64,000 bases of DNA from Oscillibacter sp. (GCA_017527365.1 JAFXQD010000090.1:1568-65567), one strand, 5' to 3'. Shown: positions 51,735-61,294, counted from the stretch's first letter. Numbers and translations are program-made. Notes: a model not told the origin generated them from the sequence alone.

Positions 51735-51858
51735 GCAATCGCAAACTTCCCGCCCCCTCTGTCGCTGCGCGACATCTCCCCCAAAGGGGGAGAACGGAGA
51801 CAAAACGCCCGTCGTTCCCCCCTCCCCTATGGGGAGGGGGACAGGGGGAGGGGTTCTT
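51735..51858 (+). repeat. structured intergenic repeat, copy 4
   Basis: GCAATCGCAAACTTCCCGCCCCCTCTGTCGCTGCGCGACATCTCCCCCAAAGGGGGAGA...CCCCCCTCCCCTATGGGGAGGGGGACAGGGGGAGGGG. Confidence 0.85.
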
Positions 51859-52132: not shown

Positions 52133-54649
52133 ATGAAAAAGCTGTCTTTCAAGCGGACGGTGGTTTCCGCTATCGCGCTTACCACGCTCCTGAACGCCGC
52201 GCCCGTGATTGCGAGCGCGTCTTATACGGGCGGCGTCACGCGCACGGCGGCGAACGCGAACGCGGTCAGCGTCCCCGACAGCGCGACAACCTTCACATTC
52301 TCCGACGGCGGCGTGACCGTCTCCGGAGCCGAAAGCGGCTACGCAATCGAGGGAACCGCCCTTACGATTCACGCGCCGGGCGTCTATACGATTACCGGAA
52401 CCTGCGCGGACGGCTCCGTCACGGTCAAGAAGGGCACGACGGGCGTTTCTCTGGTTCTGAAAGACCTGTCCCTTGCCTCTGCGACGACCGCGCCGCTGTC
52501 CTGCAACAAGGAAACGGGCGTCACGCTCTACGCCGTCGGCGCGGTCACGCTGTCCGACAAGGAAAGCCTCGCCGACGAGGACAGCGGCGAGTTTGAGGGC
52601 GCGGCGATTAAGGTCAAGTCCGGCGCGTCGCTCACGATTACGGGAACGGGGACGCTCAACGCCGACGGCTCCGCCTGCAAGAACGGCGTCAAGGGCGCGG
52701 CGGAATCGACCATCACGGTAGAGGGCGGCGTGACGCTCAACATCAAAGCCGCCAACAACGGGCTCGCCGACGACAACGCGCTTGTGATTAACGGCGGCAC
52801 GGTGAATATCGAAGCGGGCGGCGACGGTATCAAAGCCGAACCCGACGAGGGCGACACCGCCTCCAAGGGCGTAATCAACATCAACGGCGGAAGCGTCACG
52901 ATTCAGGCGCAAGGCGACGGAATCCAAGCGGCGGGCGACGTGACCATTACCGGGGGAACGTTCGACATCAAAACGCACGGCGGCGCGTCTTATGCGAAGC
53001 AGTTGACCGCCGACGACAGCGCCAAGGGAATCAAGTCCGACAGCAAAGTGATTATCAGCGGCGGCACGTTCGCCCTTGACAGCGCCGACGACGCCCTCCA
53101 CGCCAACGGCAACGTGACCGTCACGGGCGGAAGCTACACGATTCAGGCGGGCGACGACGCGCTCCACGCCGACTATGATTTGACCCTCGGCGAAAACGGC
53201 TCCGGGCCCGAAATCAACGTCAAGGGCAGTTACGAGGGGCTGGAAGGCGCGAGAATCTATCTCAACGGCGGCAAGGGCTCCATCACCGCGTCCGACGACG
53301 GCGTCAACGCCGCCAGCGACGTGGCCGCGAACGAAATCGCGCTCTATGTCAACGGCGGCGAGTGGGCGATTGACGCGGGCGGCGACGGGCTCGACGCCGG
53401 CGGCGACTCCCGCAACAACAGCGGCGGCAACATCTATGTCAACGGCGGCGTGACGAAAGTTTTCGGCTCCGCCAACGGCGGCAACGCCGCCCTCGACTAC
53501 GACGGAACCTGCGAATATAACGGCGGCACGCTCCTGACCGTCGACGTTAGCGGCATGAACATGCAGCCGCGCACGGGAACTTATGTCCTGTTCGGCTCCG
53601 CCTCCGGCATGGGCGGCGGCATGATGGGACGGCAAGGCATGGGCGGCATGACGGGACAGCAGACCATGGGCGGACAGCAGACCATGGGGCAAACGCCCGG
53701 CAGTATGGGCGGCGGGCGGCAGTCCGGCAACCAGCGCACAGCCGTTTTCACCGCCAACGTTAGCGCGCAAGACAGCATGGCTCGCATGGGCGGCATGACG
53801 GGACAGCAGACCATGGGGCAAATGCCCGGCAATATGGGCGGACAGCAAGCCATGGGACAGCAGAGCGGCAACATGGGACAGCAGACCATGGGGCAAGCCC
53901 CCGGCGCCATGGGCGGACAGCAGGCGGCGGCTTCTATGGGAAGCGTCTCTATCAGCAAGGGCAGTGCGATTGAGGTCAAGGACGCCGACGGCAATACGAT
54001 TATCTCCGCGACCGCAACCAAAACCGCCAACGTGGTCATGCTCTGCGACGACAGCATTGCCTCCGGCGAAACTTATACGCTCTACGTCAACGGCTCCGCC
54101 GTGGCGACGGCGGCGGCGACCTCCGGGGCGCAGGGCGGCGGCATGACGGGACAGCCCGCACAGCAAGAACAAACCTTCAACCCGGAGCAATCCTTCAACC
54201 CGGAGCAAACCGCCAATCCGGAACAGTCCTTCAACCCGGAGCAGTCCGCGCCGACAGCCCAACAGCCCCAACAGAACCAAGCCTTCAACCCCGAACAGGC
54301 GCAACCTTCCGAACAACTCCCCGGACAGCCCGCGAATAACGGCGGCATGAATCAGGCTCCCAACATGGGCGGCGCCATGCAACAAGCCCCGAACATGGGC
54401 GGCATGAATCAGGCTCCCGGCATGGGTAACGCTATGGGACAGCAGGGCATGGGCAACGCCCCTGCGGGACAGCAGAATCAGGGCTTCAACCCCGAACAGC
54501 CCATGAACAACGCCGCCATGCAACAAGCCCCGAACATGGGCGGCATGAATCAGGCTCCCGGCATGGGCGGCATGATGGAGCAAGCCCCCGGCATGGGCAT
54601 GGACGGCGAAATGCTCCCCTTGTGGATGGCTATGCTTTCCCGCCGTTAA
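52133..54649 (+). CDS. secreted beta-helix protein of the Cthe_2159-like (DUF4353, carbohydrate-binding) type with Met/Gly/Gln-rich C-terminal repeats
   Basis: AAGGAGG SD and a signal peptide. Repeated ..GG.VTI.A.GDGI.A.. turns (e.g. VINGGTVNIEAGGDGIKA, NINGGSVTIQAQGDGIQA, VTGGSYTIQAGDDALHA) are typical of the Cthe_2159 family. The low-complexity C-terminal third is described in the findings. Confidence 0.55.
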   Translation: MKKLSFKRTVVSAIALTTLLNAAPVIASASYTGGVTRTAANANAVSVPDSATTFTFSDGGVTVSGAESGYAIEGTALTIHAPGVYTITGTCADGSVTVKKGTTGVSLVLKDLSLASATTAPLSCNKETGVTLYAVGAVTLSDKESLADEDSGEFEGAAIKVKSGASLTITGTGTLNADGSACKNGVKGAAESTITVEGGVTLNIKAANNGLADDNALVINGGTVNIEAGGDGIKAEPDEGDTASKGVININGGSVTIQAQGDGIQAAGDVTITGGTFDIKTHGGASYAKQLTADDSAKGIKSDSKVIISGGTFALDSADDALHANGNVTVTGGSYTIQAGDDALHADYDLTLGENGSGPEINVKGSYEGLEGARIYLNGGKGSITASDDGVNAASDVAANEIALYVNGGEWAIDAGGDGLDAGGDSRNNSGGNIYVNGGVTKVFGSANGGNAALDYDGTCEYNGGTLLTVDVSGMNMQPRTGTYVLFGSASGMGGGMMGRQGMGGMTGQQTMGGQQTMGQTPGSMGGGRQSGNQRTAVFTANVSAQDSMARMGGMTGQQTMGQMPGNMGGQQAMGQQSGNMGQQTMGQAPGAMGGQQAAASMGSVSISKGSAIEVKDADGNTIISATATKTANVVMLCDDSIASGETYTLYVNGSAVATAAATSGAQGGGMTGQPAQQEQTFNPEQSFNPEQTANPEQSFNPEQSAPTAQQPQQNQAFNPEQAQPSEQLPGQPANNGGMNQAPNMGGAMQQAPNMGGMNQAPGMGNAMGQQGMGNAPAGQQNQGFNPEQPMNNAAMQQAPNMGGMNQAPGMGGMMEQAPGMGMDGEMLPLWMAMLSRR

Positions 54650-54683
54650 GGACGGCTGAGGAATACAATCAGAGGACGCGCAC

Positions 54684-54717
54684 AGGCGGCGGGATTTCCC
54701 GTCGCCTGACGCTTTTT
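54684..54717 (+). terminator. intrinsic terminator
   Basis: Stem AGGCGGCGGG/CCCGTCGCCT (one mismatch) followed by GACGCTTTTT. Confidence 0.5.
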
Positions 54718-54733
54718 CCATGTCGAAATTTTG

Positions 54734-54762
54734 TTGCCAAGGGGGGAAAAACGTGGTATAAT
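54734..54762 (+). promoter_or_regulatory. extended -10 promoter of the TIR-Sel1 gene
   Basis: TTGCCA, a 17-nt spacer, then TGgTATAAT, about 30 nt upstream of the ATG at 54792. Confidence 0.6.
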
Positions 54763-54791
54763 AGAAAATACGAAAGAAAGGGGCGGTCGGC

Positions 54792-56051
54792 ATGGAGCGG
54801 CGCGATTTCTTTGTCAGCTATACCAACCGGGATAGGGTTTGGGCGCAGTGGGTTGCTAACGTCCTGCGCAATAATGGCTATACTGTGTATATGCAAGCGA
54901 CGGACATCAAGCCCGGAGACGATTTTCTGGAGAAGATGGAGGAATTTCTGGAGAACTCCGGGAATTTTATCGCGGTGTGGTCGGAAGGCTATTCCAAATC
55001 GAAATACTGCATGAACGAACTCCGCGCCGCGTATCATCAGTGGCACAACGGGCGTATGGAATGCCTTTTGCCTGTCCGAATTGAAAATCACCCTATGAAA
55101 GCACTATATGCCGCCTTGGTTCATGTGGATTTGTTTGACATTGATAAGGTAGCGGCAGGAAAGACGCTCATGGACGCTGTACGAGAGAAAGTTCCGCGCC
55201 TTGTCCCAGTACCAGACAATGAGCAAGAAGAGTATGCGAAGATGCTCTATCAGCGCGGAGAGGACTATTATCATGGCAGAAACGGTGTCCAACGGGATTA
55301 CGCCAAAGCGCGGGACTATTACGAACGGGCGGCGGTAAAGGGCAACGCAGACGCGTTATGTGGCTTAGGCGTTCTCTATGACAACGGAAACGGTGTCCAA
55401 CGGGATTACGCCAAAGCGCGGGACTATTACGAACGGGCGGCGGTAAAAGGCAATGCGAACGCACTATTTGAATTGGGCGTTCTCTATTACGGTGGAAATG
55501 GCGTCCAACAGGATTACGCCAAGGCACGGAACTACTGGGAAGAAGCGGCGGCGAAAGGCAAGACGATTGCGTTATATAGGCTGGGTCGGATATATCAAGA
55601 GGGGACAGGCGTGAGAGTGGACTACGCCAAGGCGCGGGACTATTATGAACAGGCGGTAGCGAATGGCGACACGCTCGCATTATATCACTTGGGTCAAATA
55701 TATTATTCTGGCAGAAACGGCGTCCAACAGGATTATGCTAAGTCGAGGGATTATTACGAACGAGCGGCGGAGGACGGTGACATGGCCGCACTATGTCATT
55801 TGGGCTATCTCTATCTCAGTGGCGCAGGCGGCGTGGATGTAGATTACGCTAAGGCGTGGAAATATTACAAATGGGCGGCGGATATGGGTCATGAGTTTGC
55901 AATTCATATGTTGGGGGAATTTTACGAAAACGGCTTAGGCGTAAGCATAGACTATGCCAAGGCACTCGGATATTATCAAGAAGCCTATGACGCCGGATAT
56001 GGAAACGCCCCCGCAGATATAGAGAGACTTCGCAAAAAACTGTATGGCTAA
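54792..56051 (+). CDS. TIR domain protein fused to seven Sel1-like repeats
   Basis: N-terminal ~135 aa: RDFFVSYTNRDRVWAQWVANVLRNNGYTVYMQATDIKPGDDF...NFIAVWSEGYSKSKYCMNELRAA, a bacterial TIR pattern including the conserved Glu. This is followed by 7 units of ~36 aa with the G.GV..DYAKA..YY..AA..G...A...LG..Y Sel1/SLR signature. Confidence 0.75.
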   Translation: MERRDFFVSYTNRDRVWAQWVANVLRNNGYTVYMQATDIKPGDDFLEKMEEFLENSGNFIAVWSEGYSKSKYCMNELRAAYHQWHNGRMECLLPVRIENHPMKALYAALVHVDLFDIDKVAAGKTLMDAVREKVPRLVPVPDNEQEEYAKMLYQRGEDYYHGRNGVQRDYAKARDYYERAAVKGNADALCGLGVLYDNGNGVQRDYAKARDYYERAAVKGNANALFELGVLYYGGNGVQQDYAKARNYWEEAAAKGKTIALYRLGRIYQEGTGVRVDYAKARDYYEQAVANGDTLALYHLGQIYYSGRNGVQQDYAKSRDYYERAAEDGDMAALCHLGYLYLSGAGGVDVDYAKAWKYYKWAADMGHEFAIHMLGEFYENGLGVSIDYAKALGYYQEAYDAGYGNAPADIERLRKKLYG

Positions 56052-56101
56052 TTTCATGTCCATGGCGGCTGTTTACAAACAGACATAGAGGAGGGGCGGG
56101 T

Positions 56102-57040
56102 ATGCTGTTACTGGACTTCATCAACGTGGGAAACGGCGACGCGATACTGATACGCGAGCCGGAGGCGGATTTCGCCATGCTTGCGGACTGCGGGCACTAC
56201 GCCTTGCAACGCGACGACCATCCCGCCGAACCCGACCCCCGGTCGCAACGCGTTTTCGCCGGGGACTTCCTCCGCGAAAACGGCGTGTCCCGTCTGGATT
56301 TGCTCCTGCTCACCCACTTCCACCGCGACCACGTCGGCGGGCTTTCCCGCGTCCTCGACGCCGCGTCCGTTGACAAGCTCGCCGCCACTTACGTCCCCCC
56401 CGACGGCTTCGGCGACCTGCGCCCCGACGACAACGACCTCAATCCCACCGCCCGCAACGTCCTGCGCTGTATGAACCTCTACGCTATGGCGCTCCGCAAT
56501 CATCCGGGGCGCGTCCGCGAGCTGGCAGAGCTCTCCGGGGCGCGCACGGAATGTTTTCAGTTGACCGGCGCGCTGTCCATGGAAGTCTACTGCGCGACCC
56601 CCGGCCTCTACCGCGACCAGAAGGAGGTTTTCGACGCCGCCTACCGGGGCGCCCGCGACCGCTACGCCCTCATGCGCTGGGGCAAGTTCATGAACGCAAG
56701 CAGTTTGCGCCAGAGGCTCCGCTACCACGGCGCGGAAATCGTGCTCGGCGGCGACATGTACGGCGCCCTCTGGGACAGGGACACTACCGCCCCCTGCGAC
56801 ATCCTCAAATTGCCCCACCACGGCTCCCTGTCCTCCGCCAACCGGAAATTCTTGTCGCAACTCCAACCGAAAACTGTGGTTGTGTCCGTGGCGGCGGGGC
56901 GCCCCGACGAGCGCCCCCACCCCTACATTGTGCGACTGCTCCGCGAGTTTACCGACGACATACGCTTTACCGACGCCGTAAGCATTCCGGGGCTTGTCGA
57001 GCCCGCTTACCACAAGTCCGTGCGTATCGAGATACCGTAA
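56102..57040 (+). CDS. MBL-fold metallo-hydrolase (ComEC C-terminal-domain-like)
   Basis: Motifs FINVGNGDAILI, LLLLTHFHRDHVGGL (HxHxDH) and ..LKLPHHGS.., as in ComEC/Rec2-related beta-lactamase-fold proteins. GGAGGGG SD. Confidence 0.7.
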   Translation: MLLLDFINVGNGDAILIREPEADFAMLADCGHYALQRDDHPAEPDPRSQRVFAGDFLRENGVSRLDLLLLTHFHRDHVGGLSRVLDAASVDKLAATYVPPDGFGDLRPDDNDLNPTARNVLRCMNLYAMALRNHPGRVRELAELSGARTECFQLTGALSMEVYCATPGLYRDQKEVFDAAYRGARDRYALMRWGKFMNASSLRQRLRYHGAEIVLGGDMYGALWDRDTTAPCDILKLPHHGSLSSANRKFLSQLQPKTVVVSVAAGRPDERPHPYIVRLLREFTDDIRFTDAVSIPGLVEPAYHKSVRIEIP

Positions 57041-57086
57041 AGCGCAAAACCGGACGGCACGCGCCGCCCGGTTCGCTTATGGAAGC

Positions 57087-57359
57087 CTACATCGCAAGGC
57101 ACGTAGTCAGGAGCCACGCCGCCCCCACGAACCCGCCCCCGATTCCCGCCGTTATCCACGGCAGGAAGCGGTTCCACAGGCTCTCCGCCCTGCGCTCCTC
57201 CGTGCAGTTCCGCGCCACGCGCCGCGCCTCCTGCACCAGCGCCCGCGCCGTCACGCCCTCCCGGAACGCGTCGTTGCGCACGATGAATATCGCCTGCTCG
57301 AAGAATTTCGGGTCGGGCGCGTCAATCACGACCACCTGTCTGGAAATGCCCTTTACCAT
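57087..57359 (-). CDS. hypothetical small protein with a C-terminal hydrophobic anchor
   Basis: 90 aa (MVKGISRQVVVIDAPDPKFFEQAIFIVRNDAF...WITAGIGGGFVGAAWLL). No recognised motif. Confidence 0.4.
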   Translation of the reverse strand: MVKGISRQVVVIDAPDPKFFEQAIFIVRNDAFREGVTARALVQEARRVARNCTEERRAESLWNRFLPWITAGIGGGFVGAAWLLTTCLAM

Positions 57360-57462
57360 GCCGTTCCGTCCTCCCGTTCCGCGGATTCCCCCCTATTATG
57401 CCCGGCGTCGCGGGGAATTATGCCTCCCGCGCCAATTTCTAACGCGCACGGAAAAATTTTTC

Positions 57463-57491
57463 TTGCATTTTGTCGGAATATGCGCTATAAT
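57463..57491 (+). promoter_or_regulatory. promoter of the GLUG-motif gene
   Basis: TTGCAT, a 17-nt spacer, then TATAAT. AAGGAGG SD at 57524-57530. Confidence 0.6.
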
Positions 57492-57537
57492 TTTACAACC
57501 TTGGATTAAGCTATTATTAAAACAAGGAGGCGGTAGA

Positions 57538-58657
57538 ATGAACGAGGCGAAAGCCGCGATAATCGCGGCACTTATTACTGCAATCGCAACTCTGTTGGCC
57601 ACCTTTATTACGGTGTATCAGCCGATGAAAGCGCGATTTGCCGCGTTGGAAAACAAACTTGCGGACAACGAGGAAGAGACTGGCGCGTATACAGCCTCTT
57701 CCAATACGCAAGCAGAGATTACCTTGCAGAACGCCGTTATTTTAGTTGTCTTAGCTTTAGCGATTTTTTATGGTTGCTTCTATCGACCGGTCAGGAAGGA
57801 ACTCACTGAATTGCAAAAGAAGCTCGCGGGCGAACTGCCAGCGCACGACCCCAAGGGGTGTAAGATTTCCTCTATTGATGAATTGTACAACAATATCATC
57901 ATGAATATGGCTGGTTCGTTTTATCTGAGCAACGATATTGACGTAGCGGCGGAGCAAGGGACATGGACACCTTTAGGGTGGCAGAACGACGGAGACCATA
58001 TCCCTTTTACAGGTACGCTTGACGGACAGGGGTACACGATTCGGGGGCTTAAGAATGCGAATGATTCCATGGGGCTGTTTCAAGTCCTTTCCGGAACGGT
58101 GAGAAACCTGCATGTTGACGTGAATTTCAGCGGCGGAAACGGCGGTGCGTTTGCTGTCTCCATGACAAACAACGGACTCATTGAATGCTGTGAAGCGTCT
58201 GGAAACATTCAAACAAACGTTGGATGTCTTATAGGCGGTTTTGTGGGGAGCCGATAAGGGAATTATTAAGAACTGCCTTTCACTCGTAAGCCTGAATGCG
58301 CCGCAACTGCTTAAGGGAGGAATCATCGGAAAGGCAACAGAAAGCAGTGTCATCCATTGCTTTTTTAAAGGCAAGTTCCTGCCGCTAAATTTAAACCATA
58401 GTTCGACGACATACGTTACACCCACTTCCGCTGTGATGGTGGGAAATAGCCTTAACTGTACGGTTGATGGCTGTCACTATTATTGTGGAGAAGATTTTCA
58501 TAGCGAGATTGGGGCAAATTTGCGGCGAGAAGGGATGTATAAGAACGAGAAATGGGATTGGACAGTATGGAAAATGGATGAGCAAAAGGAAGTCAATGAC
58601 GGTTTCCCGTATTTGCGTATCTTTAAGCGGGAATATGAAACGACGCCCGCTCAATAG
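57538..58657 (+). CDS. membrane-anchored GLUG-motif protein, frame broken at the GGGG run 58245-58248
   Basis: The first part ends ..VGCLIGGFVGSR* (58257). The +1 frame continues ..GADKGIIKNCLSLVSLNAPQLLKGGIIGKATESSVIHCFFKG... Removing one G gives GGFVGADKGIIKNC, which is a GLUG motif. Visibly low-GC codon usage. Confidence 0.6.
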
Positions 58658-58756
58658 GCAAACGCCCCCGCCGTTTCGGGCGGGGGATTTTTTTCTTTCC
58701 TTTTCCGGAAAACTGTGGTAAACTATGGGCACTACGCAGGAAAGGCGGCGGTTGGG

Positions 58757-60280: not shown

Positions 60281-60416
60281 GAAACCCCCTCTGTCACTGC
60301 GCGGCATCTCCCCCATAGGGGGAGACGCAAAGACGAAAACGCTATCAAAAGTTCGTTCCCCCGCCCTTTTGGGAAGGGGGACAGGGGGAAGGGTTTCCCT
60401 AAGTTAATGACATTGG
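60281..60416 (+). repeat. structured intergenic repeat, copy 5 (core plus right outer terminus)
   Basis: Starts 4 nt after the comM stop. Ends with ..GACAGGGGGAAGGGTTTCCCTAAGTTAATGACATTGG, matching the right end of copy 1. Confidence 0.85.
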
Positions 60417-60484: not shown

Positions 60485-61294
60485 ATGACGGAAGAAAGAC
60501 GAACGAAACCGGGGCGCTGTATCCTGTGCGGGACGGAAGCCGCGTCCTTTGGCAGTCGGACGGTCGCGGAAGGCTGGCTGTGCGGCGGCTGTATTGAAAA
60601 AATGTCGCCGTGGTATCGGCTCCGTCAAGACGCCGCGCCGGAAGAACTCCGCGCTCATCTGGCTTACCGGGAGGAGAACAGGGCGCGCCTGCCCGATTTC
60701 CGCCCCGGCGTGCGGCTGTGGAGAAATCCGACGCTGTATCTGGACGACGCCCGCCGACAGTTTGCGGTGTCGGACGCCCTGACGAAAGATTTCCCGACGG
60801 AAAATCCGGATATTCTGGAATACGGTCAAATTTTGCAATGCGACGCGGAGATTGAGGAACGCAAAACCGAATTGAAACGATTTTCGCCCGGTTTGGGGCG
60901 GATTAGCTATCGCCCCAAGCGCTATCAGTACCGTTTTCATGTCTGGGTTCGGATATTGGTAGACCACCCGTTTTTCCGCGAAATGCGCTTCCGGCTGAAT
61001 CCAAGGCCGCTTGAGGTGAGCGGCCTTGACGTGGCGGCTTCCGTGCTGGGAAAGGTCGTGAAAGACCGGGACTATCAGTCGTGCGCGCAAACGGCGGAGA
61101 AAATGCGGGAAGCCCTGCTCAAAGCGCGGGACGCGGTTCCAAACGGCGGAGAAAATGCGGGAAGCCCTGCTCAAAGCGCGGGACGCGGTTCTGAAAGAAC
61201 TGGCGGACGAGGAAACTTGCGCGGCGGAAGCGGAGCAAGGGCGGGAATAACGATAGAAAACGTTTCAGCCGGGAATCGAAAGATTCTCGGCTGA
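60485..61294 (+). CDS. zinc-ribbon (DUF4428-like) protein whose C-terminus is altered by an internal 52-bp tandem duplication
   Basis: N-terminal CILCG..17 aa..CGGC zinc ribbon. The family assignment is from memory of DUF4428-type N-termini. See the repeat feature at 61088-61191. Confidence 0.5.
   Translation: MTEERRTKPGRCILCGTEAASFGSRTVAEGWLCGGCIEKMSPWYRLRQDAAPEELRAHLAYREENRARLPDFRPGVRLWRNPTLYLDDARRQFAVSDALTKDFPTENPDILEYGQILQCDAEIEERKTELKRFSPGLGRISYRPKRYQYRFHVWVRILVDHPFFREMRFRLNPRPLEVSGLDVAASVLGKVVKDRDYQSCAQTAEKMREALLKARDAVPNGGENAGSPAQSAGRGSERTGGRGNLRGGSGARAGITIENVSAGNRKILG
61088..61191 (+). repeat. perfect 52-bp tandem duplication inside a CDS
   Basis: CAAACGGCGGAGAAAATGCGGGAAGCCCTGCTCAAAGCGCGGGACGCGGTTC occurs twice back to back (61088-61139 and 61140-61191). 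Confidence 0.95.

What the first reader, a model, noticed from the sequence alone, without database searches (positions are those of the whole stretch)
54684..57040. Lower-GC TIR-Sel1-repeat gene with its own promoter, directly followed by a ComEC-type MBL-fold hydrolase: candidate NADase/defence-like two-gene module
Seen in the sequence:
- 54792-56051 encodes an N-terminal ~135-aa domain with the bacterial TIR pattern (DFFVSY..., ..IAVWSEGYSKSKYCMNELRAA). Its Glu sits where TIR NADases carry their catalytic Glu.
- Seven ~36-aa Sel1-like repeats follow (..DYAKA.DYY..AA..G..).
- The gene is bracketed by a hairpin/T-run terminator (54684-54717) and a TTGCCA-17-TGgTATAAT promoter.
- By eye, its codons are clearly more A/T-rich than the flanking core genes (rnhA, comM).
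- 50 nt downstream, with no terminator in between, lies an MBL-fold gene (HFHRDH, ..PHHGS) of host-like GC.

Established knowledge: bacterial TIR domains act as NAD+ hydrolases or signal-nucleotide synthases in Thoeris and other anti-phage systems and in some effectors. Sel1/TPR-like arrays are typical protein-binding sensor scaffolds.

Inference: the TIR-SLR protein may be a sensor-NADase, and the MBL-fold protein may be a partner or effector (possibly a nuclease). I do not know of a described system with this pairing. The different GC of the two genes argues that the linkage could be fortuitous.
Basis: partly seen in the sequence, partly recalled or inferred. Interest (0 to 1): 0.7.

Follow-up and report, generated by a model that had tools for sequence, protein, structure and literature searches.

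The report
Stand-alone TIR–Sel1-repeat gene beside unrelated hydrolase
The window holds a real, lower-GC gene for a TIR (probable NAD-cleaving) domain fused to seven Sel1 repeats with its own promoter, but the metallo-hydrolase gene next to it is a conserved gene of the host lineage (Oscillibacter/Dysosmobacter), not a partner, so the proposed two-gene defence module does not hold.

Summary
Observation confirmed. 54792-56051(+) encodes a 419-aa TIR_2 domain plus seven Sel1 repeats. It is flanked by the predicted terminator and extended -10 promoter, and its GC3 is 0.56 against 0.81-0.84 in the neighbours. A ComEC-type MBL gene follows 50 nt downstream.

Interpretation only partly supported. 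The TIR fold is solid. Glu76 is invariant in 31 family members and aligns with the catalytic Glu of the NADase BtTir (E230). The SLR array is a confident superhelix.

The TIR-SLR/MBL pairing is not a conserved module:
- In 8 distinct genomic contexts of close TIR-SLR homologues, an MBL gene follows in only 2 (the window and one related Oscillibacter).
- MBL orthologues from 25 species-representative Oscillibacter/Dysosmobacter genomes, plus one metagenomic relative (two near-identical contigs), have no TIR or Sel1 gene nearby.
- In relatives the MBL has its own promoter.
- In one sister genome the same upstream slot holds an Mrr-type restriction endonuclease.

The TIR-SLR gene carries its own conserved promoter and 5'UTR wherever it sits. 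It is always lower in GC than its flanks, and its repeat number changes fast (231-441 aa).

Best reading: an autonomous, uncharacterised single-gene TIR-SLR unit, probably a ligand-regulated NADase of the conflict/immunity type. It was inserted upstream of, and probably reads through into, an unrelated host-lineage gene. Function is untested.

The parts
54683..54718 (+). Intrinsic-terminator-like hairpin plus T-run that ends the upstream Cthe_2159-like surface-protein gene (52133-54649). It marks the left edge of the inserted unit.
   Evidence: 11-pair stem with 9 GC pairs, followed by ACGCTTTTTC. DNA homology with the related locus L002 begins just after it, at 54721.
54721..54791 (+). The TIR-SLR gene's own promoter and 5'UTR. 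Elements: GTCGAAATTTTG; -35 TTGCCA at 54734-54739; spacer GGAAAAACG; extended -10 TGgTATAAT at 54754-54762; GGGGCGG ribosome-binding region.
   Evidence: 11 of 12 matches to the consensus, with the upstream TG; the same promoter and 5'UTR is conserved upstream of family members in 7 loci representing 6 unrelated genomic contexts. GGAAAAACGTGGTAT matches without mismatch only here in the window (its one other hit carries 3 mismatches).
54792..55196 (+). TIR domain, residues 1-135. The candidate catalytic Glu76 is codon 55017-55019. The BB-loop is D38-D44 with invariant G42.
   Evidence: - Pfam TIR_2 1.7e-29.
- AF2 pLDDT 93.3 with the canonical beta/alpha order.
- Foldseek TM 0.82-0.84 to SPARTA TIR-APAZ TIR and 0.76 to AbTir.
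- E76 invariant in 26 and in 31 family members.
- E76 aligns with BtTir chain position 114, which is E230.
55215..56051 (+). Sel1-like repeat (SLR) array, residues 142-419. It has seven DYAKA-type 36-aa repeats plus capping helices. Near-identical 108-bp tandem units lie at 55279-55821.
   Evidence: - Pfam Sel1, 7 stretches, 3.8e-51.
- Tandem Repeats Finder: 108-bp period, 2.4 copies, 86% matches.
- Repeat family D1: 5 copies.
- AF2 pLDDT 96-98.
- Foldseek top hits LpnE, LceB, Oxalobacter Sel1 proteins and HcpC.
56052..56101 (+). 50-nt spacer with the MBL ribosome-binding site (AGGAGGGGCGGGT). It has no terminator and no strong promoter, so read-through from the TIR-SLR promoter is likely.
   Evidence: The only promoter-like site nearby is a weak 9-of-12 match inside the SLR 3' end (55948-55976). 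Relatives have TTGACT-17-TATAAT at this position.
56102..57040 (+). Stand-alone ComEC-type MBL-fold metallo-hydrolase, 312 aa, with HFHRDH and PHHGS. It is conserved across the host lineage (Oscillibacter/Dysosmobacter) and is not a partner of the TIR-SLR gene.
   Evidence: - Family and PDB matches.
- 557 protein clusters of about 316 aa, named 'MBL fold metallo-hydrolase' or 'ComEC/Rec2 family' by their sources.
- 25 species-representative orthologues without TIR.
- GC3 0.84, like the host.
57087..57359 (-). Conserved 90-aa gene convergent to the MBL gene, with a hydrophobic C-terminus. It travels with the MBL gene, not with the TIR-SLR gene.
   Evidence: It is 62-83% identical and at the same position in L002, L013, L017 and L155, two of which lack TIR-SLR. 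No Pfam, PADLOC or NCBIfam family matches. GC3 0.89.

Best explanation
The window carries an autonomous single-gene unit. It consists of a conserved promoter and 5'UTR followed by a cytosolic 419-aa protein with an N-terminal TIR domain and a C-terminal seven-repeat Sel1 superhelix.

The unit belongs to a small, fast-evolving family of Oscillibacter-type gut Firmicutes. The family is always lower in GC than its flanks, sits at many different chromosomal sites, and gains or loses Sel1 repeats quickly.

In this genome, and in one related genome, the unit sits immediately upstream of a ComEC-type MBL hydrolase gene conserved across that lineage. It has displaced that gene's own promoter, so the two genes are probably co-transcribed. 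The pairing is an accident of insertion, not a functional module.

Inferred mechanism (not shown):
- The TIR domain is an NAD+-cleaving enzyme that uses Glu76.
- Like other enzymatic TIRs, it is active only when TIR domains assemble head-to-tail.
- The SLR array is the protein-binding part that holds the enzyme off or drives assembly when it binds a ligand, most plausibly a phage or other invader protein.
- No signal-receiving effector gene is conserved next to it, so the likely output is NAD+ depletion (abortive infection) rather than a cADPR-type signal.
For: SHOWN
- Domain identity.
- E76 is invariant. It aligns with BtTir E230, the equivalent of AbTir E208, whose E208A mutant is inactive.
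- The closest structural neighbours of the TIR model are NADase TIRs of SPARTA (TM 0.82-0.84), whose catalytic residue is E77 and whose BB-loop is D40-W46. This is nearly collinear with E76 and D38-F45 here.
- No signal peptide or transmembrane segment is apparent by eye in the sequence (no predictor was run).
- Autonomy: the same promoter and 5'UTR precede family members in 7 loci (6 unrelated contexts). In contexts 6-8 the gene stands alone between oppositely oriented housekeeping genes.
- Lower GC and GC3 than the flanks in 10 of 10 loci.
- Repeat dynamics: a 108-bp tandem repeat at 86% identity. At one and the same locus, with flanks 92-97% identical, two relatives carry 243-aa and 441-aa versions.
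- No module: MBL follows in 2 of 8 TIR-SLR contexts. No TIR or Sel1 lies near 25 species-representative MBL orthologues, nor in contigs L155/L156. MBL relatives have their own promoter.

SUGGESTIVE of a conflict or immunity role
- In the sister genome L013 the slot upstream of the MBL is filled by an Mrr_cat restriction endonuclease.
- Similar Sel1 arrays elsewhere are fused to caspase, protein kinase, trypsin, AAA and TPR-S 'sensor' modules.
- PADLOC matches at the level of the TIR domain are to defence TIRs: SPARTA-type TIR-APAZ, SAVED-TIR and ThsB.
Against: - No enzymatic or phenotypic data exist for any family member. I found no paper on a TIR-Sel1 system in the held library.
- No PADLOC or NCBIfam defence model matches the whole protein.
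- The gene is not in a defence island. Its window neighbours are gyrB, gyrA, an S49 peptidase, an RDD protein, rnhA, a surface protein, comM and a SpoIIE-type gene. Most other contexts are housekeeping too.
- By sequence, the best PDB matches of the TIR profile are scaffolding TLR TIR domains, which also keep this Glu. The Glu alone therefore does not prove catalysis.
- The residue four positions before the Glu is Tyr or Phe rather than the Trp of AbTir (W204).
- The window and L002 do share the TIR-SLR/MBL/p90 arrangement, with gaps of 50 and 13 nt. A lineage-specific functional coupling cannot be excluded.
Confidence: 0.6

Rival explanations
1. TIR-SLR and the ComEC-type MBL hydrolase form a two-gene defence module, with TIR-SLR as sensor/NADase and the MBL as partner or nuclease effector.
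For: - The genes are adjacent on the same strand with a 50-nt gap and no terminator. The MBL promoter seen in relatives is absent here.
- The related locus L002/L003 has the same order with only a 13-nt gap.
- The truncated contig L154, whose MBL is 88% identical, ends an upstream ORF with ...ELRAKLDGESGA*. This resembles the TIR-SLR C-terminus.
- MBL-fold proteins do occur in defence systems. There are weak partial matches to PADLOC LmuA-type and RTasMBL models, Avs1a, and the NCBIfam 6A-MBL model.
Against: - 6 of 8 TIR-SLR contexts lack any MBL.
- None of 25 species-representative MBL orthologues, nor contigs L155/L156, has TIR or Sel1 nearby.
- The MBL family has at least 557 clusters against about 31 for TIR-SLR.
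- The MBL has its own promoter in relatives.
- In L013 the same slot holds an Mrr endonuclease instead.
- GC3 is 0.56 for TIR-SLR against 0.84 for the MBL.
- Between the window and L002 the MBL and p90 are 83% identical, but the TIR domain is only 64% identical.
- All defence-model matches of the MBL fall far below family cut-offs.
Confidence: 0.08
2. Non-enzymatic adaptor. The TIR domain acts as a protein-protein assembly module, as in TLR/MyD88-type TIRs. With the SLR scaffold it would serve a housekeeping or regulatory role in the cell, with no NAD+ cleavage and no immune role.
For: - The best sequence matches of the TIR profile in the PDB are scaffolding TLR15/2/6/1 TIR domains (1e-11 to 2e-9), ahead of the bacterial NADases.
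- The BB-loop has the TLR-like D-x-x-P-G motif.
- The gene is surrounded by housekeeping genes.
- The conserved promoter across paralogous sites could mark a regulon.
Against: - Structural neighbours rank NADase TIRs of SPARTA first.
- The Glu and the BB-loop Gly are invariant across a family that otherwise diverges to 39% identity.
- The patchy distribution, lower GC and rapid repeat turnover are unusual for a housekeeping adaptor.
Confidence: 0.17
3. Host-directed Tcp-like effector. A gut commensal TIR protein that mimics or interferes with animal TLR signalling or host NAD metabolism, with the SLR array binding a host protein as in Legionella LpnE or Helicobacter Hcp proteins.
For: - The organism is an Oscillibacter from animal-gut or rumen metagenomes.
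- The TIR is most similar in sequence to vertebrate TLR TIRs.
- The closest SLR structures are host-interaction proteins LpnE, LceB and HcpC.
Against: - No signal peptide or secretion motif is apparent by eye, and the protein looks cytosolic (no predictor was run).
- No secretion-system genes lie nearby in any context.
- Sel1 structural matches are generic to the repeat class.
Confidence: 0.08

Closest known systems
TIR domain of SPARTA TIR-APAZ (short pAgo systems; MapSPARTA, CrtSPARTA, BabSPARTA)
   Same: It is the best structural neighbour of the TIR model (TM 0.82-0.84, rmsd 2.2-2.8 Å) and the best PADLOC domain-level match (Aga_TIR-PNTD, 5.6e-11). The catalytic Glu and BB-loop are nearly collinear: E77 and D40-W46 there, E76 and D38-F45 here.
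   Different: This protein has no APAZ domain, and no Argonaute gene lies next door in any context. The C-terminal part is a Sel1 array. Sequence identity is only 21-24%.
Bacterial TIR NADases AbTir / BtTir / TcpB(BtpA) / PdTir
   Same: The same TIR fold. E76 aligns residue for residue with BtTir E230, the equivalent of AbTir E208. Like them it is a single-gene, cytosolic bacterial TIR protein.
   Different: Those proteins carry an N-terminal coiled coil with a C-terminal TIR. Here the TIR is N-terminal and is followed by Sel1 repeats. The Trp four residues before the Glu (AbTir W204) is Tyr or Phe here. Activity is untested.
Sel1-like repeat proteins (LpnE, LceB, HcpC, Oxalobacter Sel1 proteins, SEL1L)
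   Same: The C-terminal 278 residues form the same SLR superhelix (Foldseek E about 1e-15, 27-35% identity).
   Different: Most of the bacterial examples are generally regarded as secreted or periplasmic and have no enzymatic domain (my own knowledge, not tested here). This protein has no apparent signal peptide and carries a TIR domain.
Effector-plus-repeat-sensor immune proteins (Avs5 SIR2-STAND-TPR/Sel1; BcTir/Tpr)
   Same: The logic is the same: an NAD+-consuming domain joined to a TPR/Sel1-type repeat region that senses a trigger and controls activity (PMC12931631; bioRxiv 10.1101/2023.05.26.542521).
   Different: There is no STAND/AAA NTPase between the effector and the repeats. It is a single gene rather than the two-gene BcTir/BcTpr operon. 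It is also much smaller (231-441 aa).
ComEC/Rec2 C-terminal MBL domain (for the neighbouring gene)
   Same: The profile of the 312-aa protein matches the ComEC MBL domain (1.7e-16, 5.3e-14) and the CbpE/Pce esterase. The HxHxDH and HH motifs are invariant.
   Different: The match covers only the MBL domain of ComEC. At 312 aa, with Lactamase_B as its only Pfam domain, the protein has no room for ComEC's competence channel or OB-fold. It is conserved as a stand-alone gene throughout Oscillibacter/Dysosmobacter.

Membership tests
Enzymatic TIR domains (NADases: SARM1, AbTir/BtTir, SPARTA TIR-APAZ, plant TIRs) | Flavodoxin-like TIR fold (betaA-betaE, alphaA-alphaE) | tested here: met
   Pfam TIR_2 1.7e-29. 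AF2 pLDDT 93.3 with the expected element order. Foldseek TM 0.76-0.84 to solved TIRs.
Enzymatic TIR domains (NADases: SARM1, AbTir/BtTir, SPARTA TIR-APAZ, plant TIRs) | Conserved catalytic glutamate at the start of alphaC | tested here: met
   E76 lies in helix 71-85 and is invariant in 26 and in 31 sequences. It aligns with chain position 114 of 7uxr, which is BtTir E230, the equivalent of AbTir E208. Caveat: non-enzymatic TLR TIRs keep this Glu too.
Enzymatic TIR domains (NADases: SARM1, AbTir/BtTir, SPARTA TIR-APAZ, plant TIRs) | Intact BB-loop with a conserved Gly, needed for the composite active site | tested here: met
   The loop D38-D44 lies between betaB and alphaB. G42 is invariant, and D38 and F45 are at least 90% conserved. 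The AbTir G174A mutant is inactive.
Enzymatic TIR domains (NADases: SARM1, AbTir/BtTir, SPARTA TIR-APAZ, plant TIRs) | NAD+ cleavage that depends on the Glu and on oligomerisation | not testable with these tools
   Requires a biochemical assay.
Thoeris (ThsB TIR + ThsA effector) | A ThsA-type effector gene (SIR2/Macro/TM fused to SLOG) next to the TIR gene | tested here: not met
   No such gene lies within the flanks held (up to 6 kb) in any of the 8 contexts (precomputed Pfam lists; window neighbours scanned). ThsB models match only weakly and only over the TIR domain (5.6e-4).
SPARTA (short pAgo + TIR-APAZ) | An APAZ domain fused to the TIR, and an adjacent short Argonaute gene | tested here: not met
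   The PADLOC match covers model positions 1-116 of 430 only. The C-terminus is Sel1. No Argonaute gene appears in any context.
Sel1-like repeat (SLR) proteins | Tandem repeats of about 36 aa, each a helix pair, with the Sel1 consensus, forming a superhelix | tested here: met
   Seven Pfam Sel1 stretches. 16 helices with pLDDT 96-98. Foldseek hits to LpnE, LceB and HcpC.
Proposed TIR-SLR + MBL two-gene module | Conserved adjacency of the two gene families across genomes | tested here: not met
   MBL follows in 2 of 8 TIR-SLR contexts. None of 25 species-representative MBL orthologues, nor contigs L155/L156, has TIR or Sel1 nearby. None of 53 loci with more distant TIR relatives has this MBL.
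Proposed TIR-SLR + MBL two-gene module | A shared transcription unit | tested here: inconclusive
   In the window and L002 there is no terminator and no MBL promoter between the genes, with gaps of 50 and 13 nt. Co-transcription is therefore likely there. In other genomes the MBL has its own promoter.
ComEC/Rec2 competence protein (neighbouring gene) | MBL domain with HxHxDH plus downstream His ligands | tested here: met
   H72, H74, D76, H77, H239 and H240 are invariant. ComEC MBL domain in the PDB at 1.7e-16.
ComEC/Rec2 competence protein (neighbouring gene) | Polytopic competence (DNA channel) domain | tested here: not met
   The protein is 312 aa. It matches only positions 443-520 of the 663-position TIGR00361 model, at 54.8 bits against a cut-off of 190.
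PADLOC / NCBIfam catalogued defence systems (any) | A full-length match to a system protein model | tested here: not met
   For all 31 family members, the matches listed are to models of TIR-bearing defence proteins (plus a few short PtuA/ATPase repeat hits); for the window protein they cover only residues 1-113. All NCBIfam matches fall far below the cut-offs.

The most novel reading that the evidence does not exclude
The small TIR-Sel1 proteins of Oscillospiraceae may be a new single-gene immune sensor family. In this reading, a rapidly expanding and contracting Sel1 array acts as a variable receptor for phage proteins and switches on a TIR NADase with no NTPase module in between. Several paralogues per genome could then share one conserved promoter and form a small receptor repertoire. 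A still bolder variant is that, in the window's lineage, the unit has captured the ComEC-type MBL hydrolase as a co-transcribed effector.
Probability: 0.22. Interest if true: 0.55.

Novelty: new member of a known kind. Interest (0 to 1): 0.3.

Why it matters
If the TIR-SLR protein is an active, ligand-gated NADase, it would be one of the most compact effector-plus-sensor immune proteins known. It has a TIR joined directly to a repeat array, with no STAND ATPase, Argonaute or second gene. It would also come from abundant but poorly studied gut Firmicutes.

The rapid change in repeat number at a fixed locus would give a simple natural system for studying how repeat sensors diversify.

The practical lesson for the scan is negative. 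Close spacing and likely co-transcription with an MBL hydrolase does not make a module. The hydrolase is a conserved lineage gene, and its upstream slot is merely a place where variable genes land (TIR-SLR here, an Mrr endonuclease in a sister genome).

Tried and rejected
- Two-gene module: rejected by the neighbourhood surveys in both directions.
- Membership in Thoeris, SPARTA, CBASS-TIR/SAVED, RT-TIR or Avs: only domain-level TIR matches and no partner genes.
- Phage origin: a scan of IMG/VR with the TIR profile found no relative.
- A structured RNA or riboswitch in the conserved 5'UTR or in the ORF-poor stretch 51.5-52.1 kb: no Rfam match at gathering threshold in 50-61 kb.
- Flanking direct repeats as a sign of a mobile cassette:
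  - The roughly 100-nt repeats at 51753-51855 and 60285-60395 are copies of a dispersed intergenic element with 5 copies in the window. They are not insertion boundaries.
  - The hairpin that flanks TIR-SLR in L004, L010 and L143 is absent from the window.
- The metagenome scan with the TIR profile returned only more distant TIRs (32-57% identity) with other, mostly long, architectures. It gave little information on the TIR-SLR family itself.
- The look-up of P0010 found no record.
- The full-length Foldseek search was dominated by the SLR part, so the TIR domain was modelled and searched separately.
- One search failed because the start coordinate was off by one base. It was repeated.
- The GC3 of the 90-aa gene was read on the wrong strand. 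The correct value is 0.89.
- Whether L154 carries TIR-SLR cannot be settled, because only 47 nt of the upstream ORF are present.


Full report
1. WHAT IS THERE

The ORF 54792-56051(+) encodes 419 aa.
- Pfam places TIR_2 on residues 6-117 (E 1.7e-29) and seven Sel1 repeats after it (E 3.8e-51).
- An AlphaFold2 model built on 31 family members has mean pLDDT 94.6. It shows a canonical TIR (residues 1-133), a short linker, and a 16-helix SLR superhelix (142-418).
- Foldseek on the whole model returns Sel1 proteins: LpnE, LceB, Oxalobacter Sel1 proteins and HcpC, at E about 1e-15.
- The TIR domain modelled alone (pLDDT 93.3) is closest to the NADase TIR of SPARTA TIR-APAZ (TM 0.82-0.84). AbTir, MyD88, RUN1 and others follow.

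The gene is lower in GC (0.508; GC3 0.555) than the Cthe_2159-like gene upstream (GC3 0.81), the MBL gene (0.84) and comM (0.84).

Fifty nucleotides downstream, behind an AGGAGG ribosome-binding site and with no terminator, starts a 312-aa MBL-fold protein with HFHRDH and PHHGS.
- Its profile matches the ComEC MBL domain in the PDB (1.7e-16).
- It matches part of the TIGR00361 ComEC/Rec2 model.

2. THE GLU

- E76 (codon 55017-55019) is invariant in the TIR alignment of 26 family members and in the 31-member full-length alignment. So are R4, D5, F6, F7, S9, Y10, G42, W63, S64, Y67 and S70.
- In the phmmer alignment to PDB 7uxr (the BtTir TIR domain), E76 pairs with chain position 114.
- The construct is residues 156-287 behind a 39-residue tag (total 177 residues), so position 114 is E230. 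The authors give E230 as the equivalent of AbTir E208, whose E208A mutant is inactive.
- SPARTA's catalytic E77 and BB-loop D40-W46 are nearly collinear with E76 and D38-F45 here.
- Caveat: TLR TIR domains, which are scaffolds, are the best sequence matches of the family profile and keep the same Glu. Catalysis is inferred, not shown.

3. THE FAMILY AND WHERE IT SITS

The exact protein is recorded from an Oscillibacter MAG. About 31 protein clusters share the N-terminal TIR at 39-73% identity. They are 231-441 aa long, which corresponds to two to eight Sel1 repeats.

Contigs for nine of these clusters, plus the window, give eight distinct neighbourhoods:
1. The window: surface protein | TIR-SLR | MBL | 90-aa gene (reverse strand).
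2. L002/L003: ABC transporter | TIR-SLR | 13 nt | MBL | 90-aa gene (reverse strand).
3. L001 and L145/146: TIR-SLR | 160-aa unknown | shikimate-pathway genes.
4. L004: unknown gene | TIR-SLR | ThrRS.
5. L006-9: SCIFF radical-SAM maturase | TIR-SLR | 74-aa ORF | decarboxylase.
6. L010-12 and L143/144: LRR_5 (reverse) | TIR-SLR | citrate synthase (reverse).
7. L148-151: unknown (reverse) | TIR-SLR | flavoprotein (reverse).
8. L152: methyltransferase (reverse) | TIR-SLR | PtsI (reverse).

An MBL gene follows in only two of the eight. In contexts 6-8 the gene stands alone between oppositely oriented housekeeping genes.

Features shared across the contexts:
- In all ten loci the gene is lower in GC and GC3 than its flanks.
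- Upstream of the start codon, seven loci from six different contexts share a promoter and 5'UTR: TTGCG-type -35, GGAAAAACG spacer, TGGTATnAT, and a GGCGG-rich ribosome-binding region.
- TGGTATNAT is the organism's general extended -10 (5 copies in the window against 0.3 expected). The longer motif matches without mismatch only at this gene in the window.
- The gene is thus a self-contained transcription unit wherever it occurs.

4. REPEAT DYNAMICS

- The SLR region contains 108-bp tandem units. Two of them are 86-87% identical at the DNA level.
- At the LRR_5/citrate-synthase site, two relatives have flanks 92-97% identical and TIR DNA about 87% identical. Yet they carry a 243-aa and a 441-aa protein.
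- Repeat number therefore changes on a short evolutionary time scale.

5. THE MBL GENE IS NOT A PARTNER

- The MBL family has at least 557 protein clusters of about 316 aa. Where the sources name an organism it is Oscillibacter. The names given are 'MBL fold metallo-hydrolase' or 'ComEC/Rec2 family'.
- A scan of one genome per species found orthologues at 59-80% identity in 25 Oscillibacter/Dysosmobacter/Oscillospiraceae genomes. None has a TIR or Sel1 gene within the flanks held (up to 6 kb), by tblastn or by family HMMs. 23 of the 25 have at least 1.3 kb upstream.
- A further relative, represented by the near-identical contigs L155/L156 (81% identity), also lacks TIR and Sel1.
- Synteny around the MBL is poor everywhere.
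- In L014, L015, L016, L035 and L155 the MBL is preceded by its own TTGACT-17-TATAAT promoter. In the window and L002 that promoter is replaced by the TIR-SLR gene.
- In L013, whose MBL is 88% identical to that of L002, the same slot holds a 320-aa Mrr_cat restriction endonuclease.
- The 90-aa convergent gene travels with the MBL whether or not TIR-SLR is present.
- DNA homology between the window and L002 covers 54721-55141 (71%) and 56077-57383 (81%) and nothing beyond. The MBL and p90 proteins are 83% identical, but the TIR domain is only 64% identical.
- The truncated contig L154 (MBL 88% identical) ends an upstream ORF with ...ELRAKLDGESGA*. This resembles the family C-terminus, so a third case of the arrangement is possible.

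Taken together, the arrangement is a lineage-restricted insertion in a variable slot upstream of a conserved gene. Read-through transcription into the MBL is probable, but there is no evidence of functional coupling.

6. SURROUNDINGS

- The window neighbours are gyrB, gyrA, an S49 peptidase, an RDD protein, rnhA, the surface protein, then TIR-SLR, MBL, p90, a low-GC disrupted gene, comM, a DUF4428 protein, a SpoIIE-type phosphatase and an AAA protein.
- None of the flanking proteins I scanned is an integrase, a transposase or a defence protein.
- No homologue was found in IMG/VR viral contigs.
- No Rfam RNA was found in 50-61 kb.

7. HOW IT MOST LIKELY WORKS

Shown:
- A TIR domain with all sequence hallmarks of enzymatic TIRs.
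- An SLR protein-binding array.
- An autonomous promoter.
- Patchy, low-GC, fast-changing genes.
- A protein with no apparent signal peptide, so presumably cytosolic.

Inferred:
- The protein is an NAD+ hydrolase whose activity needs head-to-tail TIR assembly. That requirement is established for AbTir, SARM1 and SPARTA.
- The SLR array either holds the TIR in an inactive state or nucleates assembly when it binds a protein ligand.
- No conserved neighbouring effector exists, so NAD+ depletion is the likeliest output.

Points that favour a role in conflict with phages or other mobile elements:
- The swap with an Mrr endonuclease at the same slot.
- The occurrence of similar Sel1 arrays fused to caspase, kinase, trypsin, AAA and TPR-S modules.
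- The defence-type affinities of the TIR domain.

Points against such a role:
- The absence of defence-island context.
- The absence of any catalogued system match.

I put about 0.8 on 'stand-alone unit, MBL adjacency incidental' and about 0.45 on 'NADase with an immune role'.

8. COMPARISON WITH KNOWN SYSTEMS AND NOVELTY

- It works like the effector-plus-repeat-sensor immune proteins. Examples are Avs5, with SIR2, STAND and TPR/Sel1 repeats (PMC12931631), and the two-gene BcTir/BcTpr system (bioRxiv 10.1101/2023.05.26.542521).
- It lacks their NTPase or second gene, and it is not a member of Thoeris, SPARTA, CBASS or Avs (see the membership table).
- TIR_2 + Sel1 as an architecture already exists in databases, where it is annotated only as 'TIR domain-containing protein'.
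- I found no paper describing such a system.
- It is a new, uncharacterised member of a known kind. The two-gene module that made the finding look unusual is not real.
- Interest is modest.

Noticed in passing
window 57538-58257 and 58241-58657 (+); promoter about 57464-57492; terminator 58665-58686: This is a second low-GC patch (GC 0.44-0.50). It encodes a membrane-anchored protein with weak, sub-threshold GLUG / Peptidase_M26_N-like matches. The reading frame breaks at GTGGGGAGCC (58247-58257): ...GGFVGSR* continues in another frame as ADKGIIKNC.... This is either a frameshifted pseudogene or an assembly error. Low-GC genes thus flank the high-GC MBL/p90 pair on both sides.
   Followed up: partly
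window 57087-57359 (-); also L002 7820-8092, L013 2063-2338, L155 7019-7294: A 90-aa protein with a hydrophobic C-terminus is conserved at 62-83% identity, convergent to the MBL gene, in several Oscillibacter genomes. It matches no Pfam, PADLOC or NCBIfam family. It may be the real functional neighbour of the MBL.
   Followed up: partly
L013 66-1028 (+): In a goat-rumen Oscillibacter MAG the slot directly upstream of the orthologous MBL gene holds a 320-aa Mrr_cat (type IV restriction-like) endonuclease whose stop codon lies 17 nt before the MBL start. This suggests the site is a small hotspot for variable or defence genes.
   Followed up: partly
L155 5833-5967 (+) and the equivalent stretch of L035: A 44-aa ORF (MPETDDTERIPNQETLEAIEDVNQKRGLSGPYRTTEELWAALEN) lies between the MBL promoter and the MBL gene in some relatives. 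By eye it resembles a RelB/DinJ-type antitoxin tail. No Pfam match.
   Followed up: no
window 34137, 35822, 45530, 51753-51855, 60285-60395 (all + strand): A dispersed intergenic repeat of about 40-100 nt (CCCCCTCTGTCGCTGCGCGACATCTCCCCCAAAGGGGGAGA...) has five copies in 64 kb against none expected by chance. Two copies bracket the 8.5-kb segment that holds the finding, but the element is general and not an insertion boundary.
   Followed up: partly
L004 (both sides of the gene), L010 and L143 (downstream): A 34-nt hairpin, CCCCGCCTGAACCGTTTTTCCGGTACGGGCGGGG, follows the TIR-SLR stop codon in three loci and also precedes the promoter in L004. It could be a shared terminator or a cassette boundary. 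It is absent from the window.
   Followed up: partly
window 61088-61191 (+): A perfect 52-bp tandem duplication lies inside the DUF4428 gene (60485-61294). 52 is not a multiple of 3, so if the duplication is real it shifts the reading frame. It may be an assembly artefact.
   Followed up: no
loci L143/L144, L145/L146, L152/L153 (samples ERZ28019070 and ERZ28653813): Three different TIR-SLR loci (contexts 3, 6 and 8) come from the same two metagenome samples. One genome may therefore carry several paralogues that share the conserved promoter. This could not be tested without the binned genomes.
   Followed up: no
window 52133-54649 (+): The 838-aa upstream protein has a Cthe_2159 carbohydrate-binding/beta-helix domain followed by a long low-complexity tail rich in Gly, Met, Gln, Pro and Asn. 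The tail holds many short DNA repeats (families D3-D6).
   Followed up: no
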